Shown here: piece by piece, positions 23,089 through 24,147 of the stretch | Numbering within the stretch: position 1 is the stretch's first letter | How the letters are laid out: each line of letters starts with the position of its first letter | DNA from: Gammaproteobacteria bacterium | GTDB lineage: Bacteria > Pseudomonadota > Gammaproteobacteria > Steroidobacterales > Rariloculaceae | Assembly (NCBI GenBank): GCA_036381015.1 | Contig: DASVDR010000001.1 | Location: forward strand, 5,325-69,324 | Length of the DNA: 64,000 nucleotides | Direction of reading: 5' to 3' | Notes under the pieces: model-generated | Seen by the model: the letters and a program-made list of their open reading frames with translations, nothing else | The model's database searches: none | What the model was told of the DNA's origin: nothing | Made by a program: the position numbers and the translations under genes

Positions 23089-24147
23089 CTACTGCTGGGG
23101 TCTGCGGAGCTGGAGCATTGGAGTCACCTTGTTTTTGCCGACCTCGAACTGCTGCTGCAGGATCACCACGTCCCCCAGCCGAAGGCCCTGTTTCCATTTC
23201 ATCGTGAAGGTAATCCCCGTCCCGGCGTCCTGCTGACCCGTGGGGCTGACGGACGCCACGGCCGGGTAGTGAAGGTTGGACGGCGGATTGCCCGCCGGCC
23301 CGATGGCGCCGACGTACCTCAAGCCGGCCTTCTCGATCTCGCTGACGGCGGGGCCGAACGCCAAGTCGACGACGTCCGGAACGGTCACCTTTTTCGGCTT
23401 CCACTCCCATCCGAGCTGCACCTTGTCGGGCCTCTCGATCGGCGTGGTGCCGTCCGATTCGGGCGTCTGCTCGGTGACGATCTGATCGTAAAACTGCTGC
23501 CGATCGAATTCGGGTCCGCCGACGGAAAGCGCGATCTCCTCGACGCTGTAGCCCTGGCTCGTGAGCGTGCTCCTGGCCTCGGCGAGCAAGCTGCCCTCGA
23601 AATTGGGGAGGGTCACGCGCTCGTCGGGCCACAACGCCCAGAGCGCGCCACCGACGACGAGCAGCAGGGCGATCGGCGCCGCGATCATCCACCACTTGAT
23701 CTTGGGGTCGGGTTTCGGCTCGAGCGCCGGCGCGCGGAACGCGATCGGCGATCCGGTTTCGAAATCATTGTCGGGGTCGCGAAGATTCACGGCGACCGCG
23801 GCGAACCGATACCCCGCAGGGCTGACGGCCTCGCTCGTACCGGAGCCACCGTCGCCGGAGCCCGGGCTGCCGCCCTCGCCCGGCGCGGGGACGCCGGGCA
23901 CGCTGAGGTCGACGGAAAAGCTTTCCGTCGCGCCGGGAGCGATGTCGCGCTCGTCGCCGCCGCGAACCGTGAACCAGGCCTGCTGGGCGCCTTCGCTGGG
24001 CTTGATGCGCAGACCCGTGCGAATCGTGGCGCCCGTCTTGTTCGTGACGCCGTAGGTCACCGTGCCTTTGGCCGTTTCGCCGGGCTTGACCGACGAAGGG
24101 CGCAGGGTTACCGAAGCTTCCGGGGTCGTGATCGTAAAGCTCGACAT
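23089..24147 (-). CDS. single-pass membrane protein with two C-terminal PASTA-like domains, in the tail-fibre slot of the CIS operon
   Basis: The track ORF runs to 24537. I start at ATG 24147 (MSSFTITTPEAS, SD GAAGAGGG). TM helix is WWMIAAPIALLLVVGGALWALW, preceded by EPKPDPKIK. PASTA-like repeats begin at VTLPNFEGSLLAEARSTLTSQGYSV and VTVPDVVDLAFGPAVSEIEKAGLRYV. Confidence 0.7.
   Translation of the reverse strand: MSSFTITTPEASVTLRPSSVKPGETAKGTVTYGVTNKTGATIRTGLRIKPSEGAQQAWFTVRGGDERDIAPGATESFSVDLSVPGVPAPGEGGSPGSGDGGSGTSEAVSPAGYRFAAVAVNLRDPDNDFETGSPIAFRAPALEPKPDPKIKWWMIAAPIALLLVVGGALWALWPDERVTLPNFEGSLLAEARSTLTSQGYSVEEIALSVGGPEFDRQQFYDQIVTEQTPESDGTTPIERPDKVQLGWEWKPKKVTVPDVVDLAFGPAVSEIEKAGLRYVGAIGPAGNPPSNLHYPAVASVSPTGQQDAGTGITFTMKWKQGLRLGDVVILQQQFEVGKNKVTPMLQLRRPQQ

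What the first reader, a model, noticed from the sequence alone, without database searches (positions are those of the whole stretch)
23089..24147. Membrane-spanning PASTA-domain protein in the tail-fibre position: candidate envelope anchor for the CIS
This 352-aa protein follows the gpI-like gene directly, where P2 gpH or Afp13 fibres normally sit.

Architecture as read from the sequence:
- A soluble N-terminal region of about 190 aa. It is beta-rich and contains a Gly/Ser/Pro linker, GEGGSPGSGDGGSG.
- A Lys-rich EPKPDPKIK segment, then one strong TM helix (WWMIAAPIALLLVVGGALWALW), then acidic PDER.
- Two ~65-aa PASTA-like repeats after the helix.

The positive-inside rule suggests N-in/C-out topology. 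PASTA domains are established extracytoplasmic peptidoglycan/beta-lactam-binding modules of PBP2x and PknB-type kinases, and I know them mainly from Gram-positive bacteria. One inside a CIS operon of an apparently Gram-negative genome is unexpected.

Inference: a cytoplasmic N-domain docks to the baseplate while the periplasmic PASTA domains bind the cell wall. The particle would then be tethered to the producer's envelope rather than released with fibres. This would be functionally analogous to the membrane tethering described for cytoplasmic or thylakoid-anchored CIS.
Basis: partly seen in the sequence, partly recalled or inferred. Interest (0 to 1): 0.8.

Follow-up and report, generated by a model that had tools for sequence, protein, structure and literature searches.

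The report
Membrane-spanning PASTA adaptor of a CIS
The gene is real and encodes a single-pass membrane protein with a folded domain inside the cell and two cell-wall-binding PASTA domains outside; it belongs to a large, apparently undescribed family that fills the tail-fibre slot of a compact phage-tail-like injection system and probably couples that machine to the producer's own envelope.

Summary
Window 23089-24147 (minus strand) encodes a 352-aa protein with four parts:
- an N-terminal Ig-like beta-sandwich (residues 1-140)
- a Lys-rich juxtamembrane stretch
- one TM helix (152-173)
- two PASTA repeats (Pfam E=6.8e-8, above the curated cut-off; AF2 pLDDT 87.7; Foldseek hit to PknB PASTA1-2)

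- **PASTA match:** it is significant, and present in 26 of 27 close homologues.
- **Topology:** family-wide charge bias (p=2e-11) and cysteine pattern (17-fold enrichment after the TM; an even count in 89 of 94) place the C-terminus outside.
- **Linkage:** the gene follows gpJ/gpI in 9 of 9 looked-up contigs and in 9 of 10 long metagenome contigs.

New here:
- The N-domain defines a superfamily of about 1345 clusters with the same N-domain/TM/variable-ectodomain plan.
- PASTA is the commonest ectodomain; lectins occur in others.
- Genes occur in tandem arrays of 1-5.
- The accompanying CIS lacks a recognisable ATPase, and its sheath and Cis11 are closest to the cytoplasmic Streptomyces CIS, which needs the bitopic protein CisA.

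Docking to the baseplate and peptidoglycan binding remain inferred. Verdict: a new variant of a known kind.

The parts
23089..24147 (-). Whole gene: 352-aa bitopic membrane protein (N-domain, TM, 2x PASTA); stop codon at 23089-23091
23728..24147 (-). Residues 1-140: conserved N-terminal Ig-like beta-sandwich ('N-dom'), predicted cytoplasmic. It is the family-defining module and the candidate baseplate-docking domain.
   Evidence: AF2 strands at pLDDT about 90. Foldseek matches MSP/VAP, PapD-like/ASH and FixG_C folds. The profile finds 1345 relatives, with the domain at residue 1 in nearly all.
23815..23892 (-). Residues 86-111: Gly/Ser/Pro-rich disordered loop inserted in the beta-sandwich (contains GEGGSPGSGDGGSG); clade-specific
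   Evidence: pLDDT below 50 at 93-97 and 100-103; absent from most homologues
23695..23727 (-). Residues 141-151: short Lys-rich juxtamembrane linker (LEPKPDPKIK)
   Evidence: the family-wide basic K/R-FPWW/KWW motif sits before the TM
23629..23694 (-). Residues 152-173: single transmembrane helix WWMIAAPIALLLVVGGALWALW
   Evidence: Kyte-Doolittle 2.32; AF2 helix 152-170; 135 of 142 distant relatives have a TM at the same place
23395..23619 (-). Residues 177-251: PASTA repeat 1, predicted periplasmic
   Evidence: Pfam PF03793, best stretch 178-244; own profile 178-246, E=4.9e-7; AF2; Foldseek 5e10
23188..23391 (-). Residues 253-320: PASTA repeat 2, predicted periplasmic
   Evidence: second Pfam stretch; own profile 254-318, E=2.9e-7; AF2
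23092..23187 (-). Residues 321-352: C-terminal helix (324-337) and tail, conserved only in the close clade
24177..24728 (-). gpI/Cis12-like small baseplate protein, immediately upstream
   Evidence: TIGR02242 E=1.7e-9; CIS12_fam and Tail_P2_I weak; an own gpI profile hits just upstream of the first N-dom gene in 25 of 35 metagenome loci
24758..27427 (-). gpJ/Cis11-like baseplate protein. The likely true start is near 27313. Its C-terminal 370 aa (24761-25870) form a 7-bladed beta-propeller that Streptomyces Cis11 lacks.
   Evidence: Baseplate_J E=7e-15 and TIGR02243 224.6 bits; closest PDB chain 9gtp_1K, covering query residues 171-516 only; AF2 pTM 0.79 and Foldseek GH74/WD40 propellers
27291..33501 (-). 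Rest of the CIS core, in approximate coordinates: gp25 (27291-27923), 113-aa protein (27758-28099), VgrG (about 28103-29620), CIS_tube-like (29623 to about 30486), unknown protein of roughly 350-424 aa (30465-31739), tube (31772-32248), sheath (32311-33501). A CarboxypepD_reg-domain protein precedes them (33494 to about 34210).
   Evidence: the same order in L001-L013
22525..23073 (-). Downstream 182-aa protein with an N-terminal hydrophobic signal or anchor and 7 Cys. It is conserved after the PASTA gene in the gammaproteobacterial clade only.
   Evidence: no hit with its profile in the 74 metagenome loci
21828..22517 (+). 229-aa polytopic membrane protein (6-7 TM, 'mem230'). It is conserved with the system across the superfamily.
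   Evidence: its profile hits within 8 kb downstream of the N-dom array in 11 of 14 loci with enough sequence

Best explanation
**What it is.** The protein is a type II (N-in/C-out) inner-membrane adaptor dedicated to a compact contractile injection system.

**Cytoplasmic side.** The conserved Ig-like N-domain sits only about 11 residues from the membrane. I infer that it docks to the periphery of the baseplate: the small gpI/Cis12 protein and/or the beta-propeller extension of Cis11.

**Periplasmic side.** The two PASTA domains start 4 residues after the helix. I infer that they bind peptidoglycan or its precursors (muropeptide or lipid II), as PASTA domains do in PknB-type kinases and PBP2x.

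**Consequence.** The protein would work as an 'inside-out tail fibre'. It holds the baseplate against the producer's own cytoplasmic membrane at places defined by the cell wall, and probably licenses firing there. This replaces released fibres binding a foreign cell.

**Shown:**
- the gene, its domains and the predicted topology
- the strict synteny with gpJ/gpI
- the family-wide modularity
- the relatedness of the CIS to the cytoplasmic Streptomyces CIS

**Inferred:**
- N-domain-to-baseplate contact
- peptidoglycan binding
- the effect on localisation or firing
For: **Domains.** PASTA is above the Pfam cut-off, is found in 26 of 27 homologues, and is supported by AF2 and the Foldseek match to PknB PASTA. 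There is a single TM.

**Topology.**
- Charge bias and Cys parity over 165 members favour C-out.
- The TM+PASTA part is collinear with the PknB/Stk1 model.
- Ectodomains elsewhere in the family are typical extracytoplasmic binding modules: PASTA in 62 of 139, plus LamG_3, H_lectin, B_lectin, Tectonin, CBM_4_9, PAN, PD40 and phage Collar.
- A TM-less N-dom-CHAT fusion (L013) argues that the N-domain is cytoplasmic.

**Linkage to the baseplate genes.**
- 9 of 9 look-ups show the gene after gpJ/gpI.
- 25 of 35 metagenome loci with at least 900 nt upstream have gpI just upstream, and 9 of 10 long contigs carry the full operon.

**Fibre-like modularity.**
- The N-domain is 50-93% identical between proteins whose C-termini are unrelated.
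- Arrays hold 1-5 paralogues.
- 23 of 27 arrays keep at least one PASTA-type copy.

**No other fibre or anchor.** There is no tail-fibre family hit. A conserved polytopic membrane protein travels with the system.

**Precedent.** The sheath and Cis11 are closest to Streptomyces CISSc (E=1.5e-90 and 1.1e-46). Its contraction needs the bitopic protein CisA, encoded in the same slot and predicted to bind Cis11 (PMC12237407). Archaeal T6SS-like CIS likewise correlate with a conserved membrane protein (PMC11566945).
Against: - No physical evidence shows that the N-domain touches the baseplate.
- The N-domain fold is a generic Ig-like sandwich with no specific relative among solved or viral structures.
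- The target itself has no cysteines, and its own positive-inside signal is modest: 4 K/R in the 15 aa before the TM against 1 after.
- Two PASTA domains may be too short to reach the mature sacculus in a diderm (my estimate, not computed), so the ligand could be a precursor rather than the wall.
- One long contig carries an orphan N-dom-TM-PASTA gene with no CIS within 10 kb (L020).
- No channel through the outer membrane is evident, so the outcome of firing (export or self-killing) is unknown.
Confidence: 0.6

Rival explanations
1. Transient sensor or checkpoint rather than a stable tether. The particle floats free in the cytoplasm. The ectodomain (PASTA, lectin and so on) detects an envelope signal such as cell-wall damage or muropeptides. 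Only then does the N-domain recruit or trigger the baseplate, as proposed for CisA.
For: - Ectodomains are highly variable and occur as arrays of paralogues with different binding modules, which suits ligand recognition better than mere anchoring.
- PASTA domains act as ligand sensors in PknB-type kinases (established knowledge).
- The closest CIS (CISSc) is free-floating, and CisA is absent from purified particles.
- The related Roseiflexus CIS are unanchored.
Against: - The very short linkers on both sides of the TM (about 11 and about 4 residues) and the folded, highly conserved N-domain look like a structural connector.
- Nothing here distinguishes transient from stable binding.
Confidence: 0.2
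2. CIS-independent envelope protein that merely travels with the operon. Examples would be a cell-wall-associated protection or immunity factor, or an assembly or release factor, with no contact to the particle.
For: - An orphan copy lies away from any CIS genes (L020).
- No interaction data exist.
- Other envelope proteins (the 182-aa exported protein, the polytopic mem230 and a Trypsin_2 protein) cluster nearby.
Against: - The position directly after gpI is near-invariant across lineages down to about 30% identity.
- The cytoplasmic N-domain, not the ectodomain, is the conserved part. That is the opposite of what a periplasmic protection factor would show.
Confidence: 0.08
3. Effector, or effector-loading adaptor. 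The N-domain would be a CIS-targeting module, and the variable C-terminus would be the payload delivered by the particle.
For: - The architecture of a conserved N-terminus and a variable C-terminus resembles polymorphic effectors.
- One relative fuses the N-domain to a CHAT protease without a TM (L013).
- The genes sit downstream of the structural genes.
Against: - C-termini are overwhelmingly binding modules (PASTA, lectins, CBM), not toxins.
- The TM helix and paired cysteines indicate insertion into the producer's membrane.
- There is no PAAR, MIX or other known loading domain.
Confidence: 0.07
4. Genuine extracellular tail fibre of a released eCIS. The hydrophobic stretch would be a buried oligomerisation or target-membrane-insertion element, and PASTA would bind the peptidoglycan of prey.
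For: - It occupies the tail-fibre slot.
- Its modular N-terminal adaptor and C-terminal binding domain organisation is fibre-like.
- A phage tail Collar domain occurs in one relative.
Against: - A 22-residue TM with flanking charge bias is conserved in 135 of 142 relatives.
- There is no fibre-like repeat, coiled coil or tail-fibre family hit.
- No lysis cassette is recognised in the locus.
- The closest CIS is cytoplasmic.
Confidence: 0.05

Closest known systems
CisA (SCO4242), membrane adaptor of the Streptomyces coelicolor cytoplasmic CIS (PMC12237407)
   Same: [quoted passage not shown]
- It is a bitopic N-in/C-out membrane protein with a ligand-binding-like ectodomain.
- It belongs to the CIS whose sheath and Cis11 are the closest solved relatives of those in this window.
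- It is proposed to bind Cis11 and to act as anchor and/or sensor.
   Different: - CisA has a 285-aa, largely unstructured cytoplasmic part and a solute-binding-protein-like C-terminal domain. Here the cytoplasmic part is a compact Ig-like domain and the ectodomain is PASTA or a lectin.
- The present CIS lacks the ATPase seen in lineage IId clusters, and it often carries arrays of 2-5 paralogues.
- Direct sequence comparison with CisA could not be done, because the sequence was not on hand.
Hbor_38620-type putative membrane anchor of the haloarchaeal T6SS-like CIS (PMC11566945)
   Same: It is a conserved membrane protein whose presence in CIS clusters correlates with baseplates docked on the cytoplasmic membrane. 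The present system also carries a conserved polytopic (6-7 TM) protein.
   Different: Hbor_38620 has six TM helices plus a cytoplasmic domain of about 150 residues, lies upstream of the cluster, and has no ectodomain. No homology was tested.
T6SS peptidoglycan anchors (TssL/TagL/TagN with OmpA/MotB-like domains)
   Same: Functional logic, from my own knowledge: an inner-membrane protein with a cytosolic baseplate-facing domain and a periplasmic peptidoglycan-binding domain fixes a contractile machine to the wall.
   Different: - There is no OmpA-like domain and there are no T6SS core genes (TssJ/M/K, ClpV).
- The sheath is of the phage/eCIS type.
PknB/Stk1/PrkC PASTA Ser/Thr kinases
   Same: The TM plus tandem extracellular PASTA module is collinear with positions 330-497 of the kinase model. 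Foldseek matches PknB PASTA1-2.
   Different: There is no kinase domain: 33.6 bits against a family cut-off of 450. The cytoplasmic module is replaced by the Ig-like N-domain.
Tail fibres of P2 (gpH), Afp13/Pvc13/Cis13
   Same: - The gene position is after gpI.
- A conserved N-terminal attachment module is combined with exchangeable C-terminal binding modules.
- Several versions can occur per locus.
   Different: - It has a membrane-spanning helix.
- It has no fibre repeats.
- It has no tail-fibre family hit in Pfam or PHROGs.
Thylakoid-anchored CIS (tCIS) of Anabaena: Cis11 extension and Cis19
   Same: The baseplate protein Cis11 carries an extra C-terminal domain. Here that domain is a 7-bladed propeller.
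   Different: Anchoring in tCIS is by baseplate extensions themselves (as summarised), not by a separate bitopic protein with an ectodomain.

Membership tests
PASTA domain (Pfam PF03793) | Profile match above the curated gathering score | tested here: met
   32.8 bits against a cut-off of 23.2, E=6.8e-8, two stretches; 26 of 27 close homologues match, best E=3.8e-16; two repeats found with an independent in-house profile
PASTA domain (Pfam PF03793) | Small alpha+beta fold, as in PknB/PBP2x PASTA units | tested here: met
   AF2 gives two helix-plus-strand units at pLDDT above 90; Foldseek matches 5e10 (PknB PASTA1-2), E=4e-5, probability 1.0, TM-score on target 0.46
PASTA domain (Pfam PF03793) | Extracytoplasmic location | tested here: met
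   By prediction only. There is no signal peptide and a single TM. Family-wide charge bias gives p=2e-11, and Cys is enriched after the TM with an even count in 89 of 94. The TM+PASTA part is collinear with that of PknB-type kinases. No experiment was done.
PASTA domain (Pfam PF03793) | Binding of peptidoglycan fragments, lipid II or beta-lactams | not testable with these tools
   Needs sacculus pull-down or ligand binding with the purified ectodomain (residues 174-352)
CisA-type CIS membrane adaptor (Streptomyces) | Gene directly downstream of the baseplate genes, in the tail-fibre slot of a CIS related to CISSc | tested here: met
   29 nt after gpI; sheath and Cis11 closest to CISSc chains 8bky/9gtp
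CisA-type CIS membrane adaptor (Streptomyces) | Bitopic, N-terminus cytoplasmic, C-terminus outside | tested here: met
   Predicted. For CisA this was shown by PhoA-LacZ.
CisA-type CIS membrane adaptor (Streptomyces) | CisA domain architecture: long unstructured N-terminal region and a solute-binding-like C-terminal domain | tested here: not met
   Here the N-terminus is a folded Ig-like domain and the C-terminus is two PASTA domains, against the published description of CisA. The CisA sequence itself was not available for alignment.
CisA-type CIS membrane adaptor (Streptomyces) | Required for CIS contraction or function; binds Cis11 | not testable with these tools
   Needs genetics, cryo-ET and interaction assays.
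Tail fibre (P2 gpH / Afp13 / Cis13) | Sequence or profile similarity to tail-fibre families | tested here: not met
   No tail-fibre family in Pfam or PHROGs; no PDB sequence relative
Tail fibre (P2 gpH / Afp13 / Cis13) | Conserved N-terminal attachment module with exchangeable C-terminal binding module, encoded after gpI | tested here: met
Tail fibre (P2 gpH / Afp13 / Cis13) | Soluble fibre without a membrane span | tested here: not met
   TM helix at 152-173, conserved in 135 of 142 relatives
T6SS membrane complex / peptidoglycan anchor (TssL, TagL) | OmpA/MotB-like peptidoglycan-binding domain and T6SS core genes (TssJ/M/K, ClpV) | tested here: not met
   Only PASTA was found in the protein. 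No T6SS families were found among the window's genes examined.
PknB/Stk1 PASTA kinase | Ser/Thr kinase domain; whole-protein score above the NCBIfam cut-off | tested here: not met
   NF033483 scores 33.6 bits against a cut-off of 450, and the match is limited to the TM+PASTA part. The PADLOC PD-T4-6 hit is likewise limited to that part.

The most novel reading that the evidence does not exclude
A widespread CIS lineage has turned its tail fibres inside out. It spans at least Gammaproteobacteria and Ktedonobacteraceae, and the N-domain superfamily has on the order of a thousand 50%-identity protein clusters. Arrays of bitopic proteins share one cytoplasmic baseplate-docking domain and expose exchangeable PASTA or lectin ectodomains. 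Through these the cytoplasmic machine would read the state of the producer's own cell wall, or a neighbour's surface, and fire from within. This would be a distinct, general mode of CIS action and triggering. It would also supply the missing membrane adaptor for CISSc-like systems that lack cisA.
Probability: 0.3. Interest if true: 0.85.

Novelty: new variant of a known kind. Interest (0 to 1): 0.72.

Why it matters
How non-T6SS, non-released contractile injection systems find a membrane and decide to fire is an open question. CisA in Streptomyces is the only characterised adaptor. Related systems, such as the Roseiflexus CIS, are reported to lack close cisA homologues.

This finding offers three things:
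- a large, easily recognisable family that could play the adaptor role in a sister lineage
- a defined cytoplasmic domain that can be tested for baseplate binding
- ectodomains whose known ligand class (peptidoglycan and glycans) suggests what signal is read

The family also gives a simple genomic marker for predicting a membrane-coupled rather than extracellular mode of action. The marker is an N-domain/TM gene after gpI, together with the absence of a fibre, an ATPase and a lysis cassette. Finally, the exchangeable ectodomains could be of use for re-targeting engineered CIS.

Tried and rejected
- **PDB sequence search:** phmmer of the target against PDB sequences gave only a chance hit.
- **PHROGs:** no hits for the target or its unknown neighbours.
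- **PADLOC:** only a PASTA-kinase-like partial hit (PD-T4-6), so there is no evidence for membership of a known defence system.
- **Foldseek against viral structures:** only generic Ig-like matches, with no tail-fibre or baseplate relative of the N-domain.
- **Paired gpI+linker+N-domain alignment (20 loci):** N-domain-baseplate contact is therefore untested.
- **GTDB genome scan with the N-domain:** only 2 loci, both uncultured Gammaproteobacteria, probably because the peptide patterns were narrow.
- **First metagenome scan:** the broad alignment was too diverse, so a tighter alignment was used.
- **The listing of cluster members:** added no taxonomy.
- **Concerted evolution of N-domains within a locus:** only weakly seen. 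Within-locus identity is 66% against 43% between loci, but only 24 of 72 copies have a co-resident paralogue as nearest neighbour. I did not use it as evidence for a shared partner.
- **Lysis or spanin idea:** rejected, because the conserved part is a 140-aa cytoplasmic domain and no endolysin or holin family was seen in the locus.
- **Literature:** no paper in the held library contains both 'contractile injection' and 'PASTA domain'.
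Full report
**The observation**

- Its third-position GC (0.86) matches the neighbouring genes.
- A GAAGAGGG motif lies 7 nt upstream of the ATG.
- Every homologue begins MSSF..., so the longer 482-aa ORF that overlaps gpI is not the gene.
- The identical protein is deposited as a hypothetical protein of a Gammaproteobacteria MAG.

It sits in a minus-strand operon that reads: sheath, gp19-like tube, an unknown protein of roughly 350-424 aa, CIS_tube-like, VgrG, a 113-aa protein, gp25, a gpJ-like protein and a gpI-like protein. The target starts 29 nt after gpI.

**Anatomy**

A hydropathy scan finds one TM helix, residues 152-173. It is preceded by EPKPDPKIK and followed by PDER.

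PASTA is supported by four results:
- Pfam gives PASTA at E=6.8e-8 (32.8 bits, cut-off 23.2) in two stretches.
- A profile I built from other family members finds repeats at 178-246 and 254-318.
- AF2 with 27 sequences (pLDDT 87.7) gives an N-terminal beta-sandwich (1-140), a helix (152-170), two alpha+beta units (177-251 and 253-320) and a terminal helix.
- Foldseek matches the C-terminal half to PknB PASTA1-2 (5e10).

Foldseek matches the N-domain only to generic Ig-like sandwiches: MSP/VAP, PapD-like/ASH and FixG_C.

- The soluble N-terminal part is about 150 aa, not about 190 aa.
- The Gly/Ser/Pro stretch is a disordered loop inside the sandwich, restricted to the closest homologues. It is not a linker.

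**Topology**

There is no signal peptide. I analysed 165 family members:
- The 15 residues before the TM carry a net charge of +0.78, against -0.73 after it (108 vs 31 proteins; Wilcoxon p=2e-11).
- Cysteines are almost absent before the TM (0.10 per 100 aa; none in 146 proteins) and 17-fold denser after it.
- 89 of the 94 Cys-containing C-terminal parts have an even number, as expected for disulfide-bonded extracytoplasmic domains.

Two further observations agree:
- The TM+PASTA part aligns collinearly with the TM plus extracellular part of the PknB/Stk1 kinase model.
- One relative fuses the N-domain to a CHAT protease without any TM (L013), which fits a cytoplasmic N-domain.

N-in/C-out is therefore well supported by prediction. 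For the target itself the signal is modest, because it has no cysteines.

**Conservation with the CIS**

*Close homologues.* These are 35-87% identical, from uncultured Gammaproteobacteria and metagenomes. They sit after gpJ/gpI in the same operon in all five look-ups.

Some loci carry two or three paralogues that share the N-domain but have unrelated C-termini: cadherin-like, CARDB-like or unknown.

*Distant relatives.* A profile of the N-domain, searched against 1.84 billion representative proteins, finds 1345 proteins at E<=1e-3 and 306 at E<=1e-10.
- Of the 142 best distant ones, 135 have the domain at residue 1 followed by a TM at about 125-150.
- Among 139 scanned, 62 carry PASTA. Others carry LamG, H-type and B-type lectins, Tectonin, CBM_4_9, PAN, PD40 or a phage Collar domain.
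- Four distant members with long contigs, one from a Ktedonobacteraceae MAG, again lie right after gpJ/gpI of the same compact operon.

*Metagenome sample.* In 74 loci, searched with profiles built from these operons:
- 25 of 35 with at least 900 nt upstream have gpI immediately upstream.
- 9 of 10 long contigs carry the whole operon.
- The exception, L020, is an orphan N-dom-TM-PASTA gene.
- Complete arrays in this sample hold 1-3 copies. Arrays of 5 occur in L011 and L034.
- 23 of 27 arrays include at least one PASTA-type copy.

A 6-7-TM protein of about 230 aa (window 21828-22517) accompanies the system in 11 of 14 loci with enough downstream sequence.

**What kind of CIS**

The sheath is most similar to the Streptomyces coelicolor CISSc sheath (8bky/9gtp, E=1.5e-90, against Pvc2 at 1.5e-45). 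Cis11 matches only CISSc Cis11 (9gtp_1K, E=1.1e-46).

The operon differs from lineage IId clusters in three ways:
- It starts with a CarboxypepD_reg-domain protein.
- It shows no AAA+ ATPase gene, and no other long coding ORF in the 64-kb window is one. No tape-measure or cap gene was recognised either.
- Its Cis11 carries an extra C-terminal 7-bladed beta-propeller (AF2 pTM 0.79; Foldseek GH74/WD40 propellers).

**Mechanism**

CISSc is cytoplasmic and lacks fibres. It needs CisA, a bitopic N-in/C-out protein encoded in the tail-fibre slot and predicted to bind Cis11. CisA is proposed to recruit the particle to the membrane and perhaps to sense stress (PMC12237407). Haloarchaeal T6SS-like CIS likewise correlate with a conserved membrane protein (PMC11566945).

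The present protein has the same position and topology but different domains. I therefore read it as a membrane adaptor, an 'inside-out tail fibre'. The reasoning has three steps:
- The conserved cytoplasmic N-domain is held about 11 residues from the membrane. Inference: it docks to the baseplate rim, meaning Cis12 and/or the Cis11 propeller.
- The PASTA pair begins 4 residues beyond the helix. Inference, from the established role of PASTA in PknB-type kinases and PBP2x: it binds peptidoglycan or its precursors.
- Two PASTA units may be too short to reach the sacculus of a diderm, so nascent peptidoglycan or lipid II at the membrane surface is a reasonable ligand. This step is speculation.

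The variety of ectodomains and the paralogue arrays suggest recognition or sensing as well as anchoring. The data cannot separate a stable tether from a CisA-like checkpoint. Whether firing exports something or kills the producer is unknown.

**Rivals**

- **Sensor only:** confidence 0.2. It differs from the main model only in whether binding to the baseplate is transient or stable.
- **Hitch-hiking envelope protein:** disfavoured, because the conserved part is the cytoplasmic one.
- **Effector or effector adaptor:** disfavoured by the binding-module nature of the C-termini.
- **True released fibre:** disfavoured by the conserved TM and by the lack of fibre features.

**Novelty**

- No paper in the held library combines 'contractile injection' with 'PASTA domain'.
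- 'Bitopic' with CIS retrieves only the CisA paper.
- Neither Pfam, NCBIfam nor PHROGs has a model for the N-domain. There are only weak NPCBM_assoc and FixG_C hits.

The concept of a CIS membrane adaptor is known. This family, its modular ectodomains and its CIS lineage appear undescribed, so I rate it a new variant of a known kind.

**Limits**

- Taxonomy rests on two kinds of MAG labels (Gammaproteobacteria and Ktedonobacteraceae).
- The 1345 count may include some generic Ig-domain proteins near the threshold.
- Interaction, ligand and function are untested.

Noticed in passing
window 24761-25870 (-): The gpJ/Cis11-like protein has a C-terminal extension of about 370 aa that Streptomyces Cis11 lacks. 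AF2 (pTM 0.79) folds it as a 7-bladed beta-propeller resembling GH74/BNR and WD40 propellers. It is a possible docking platform or membrane-facing part of the baseplate.
   Followed up: partly
window 21828-22517 (+): A 229-aa polytopic membrane protein (6-7 TM) with no family hit. Its profile recurs within 8 kb downstream of the N-domain gene array in 11 of 14 loci across the superfamily, on either strand. It may be a second membrane component of the system.
   Followed up: partly
window 22525-23073 (-): A 182-aa protein with an N-terminal hydrophobic signal or anchor and 7 cysteines lies directly after the PASTA gene. It is conserved (180-186 aa) in the gammaproteobacterial loci but was not detected in the 74 metagenome loci.
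   Followed up: partly
window 18480-21797 (+): A 432-aa unknown protein and a 663-aa Trypsin_2-domain protein converge on the CIS operon. The Trypsin_2 protein has an N-terminal hydrophobic segment and 18 Cys. The same pair (about 424 aa and about 630 aa), often with a ceramidase-like gene, recurs next to the related loci L001, L002/L003 and L005. They could be accessory or effector genes.
   Followed up: no
window 27291-34210 (-) and the whole window: The CIS operon is compact, at about 13 genes. It begins with a CarboxypepD_reg-domain protein. It has no recognisable AAA+ ATPase (Cis15), tape measure or cap gene, and no such gene was seen elsewhere in the 64 kb. An unknown protein of roughly 350-424 aa lies between the tube and the CIS_tube-like gene.
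   Followed up: partly
L013 17891-20005 (-): A 704-aa protein has the same N-domain, nearly identical to a TM-bearing paralogue 7 kb away. It is fused to a CHAT (caspase-like) protease and has no obvious TM. It lies next to another CHAT gene, beside a CIS operon.
   Followed up: no
L020 9995-10705 (+): An orphan N-domain-TM-PASTA gene with no CIS gene within 10 kb on either side. Its neighbours are a multihaem cytochrome/TPR protein, an aldo-keto reductase, a DUF2961 protein and M16 peptidases.
   Followed up: partly
L011 6958-11888 (+): Five tandem N-domain/TM paralogues sit in one locus of a 1.6-Mb contig. Only the last carries PASTA. The other four have unrelated, unannotated ectodomains.
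   Followed up: no
window 12177-17342 (-): A single 1721-aa ORF contains a complete S46 peptidase (residues 362-1025) followed by a complete M13 peptidase (1079-1718). It is either a real fusion or two genes read through in one frame.
   Followed up: no
window 39462-42203 (+), 58446-59777 (-), 59782-62214 (-): Two proteins carry the DUF1592/1588/1585/1587/1595 (PSD/PSCyt) set, one of them with a cytochrome c domain, and there is also a DUF1552 protein. These are families first described in planctomycetes, seen here in a MAG labelled Gammaproteobacteria. An ankyrin-repeat protein lies at 62211-63851.
   Followed up: no
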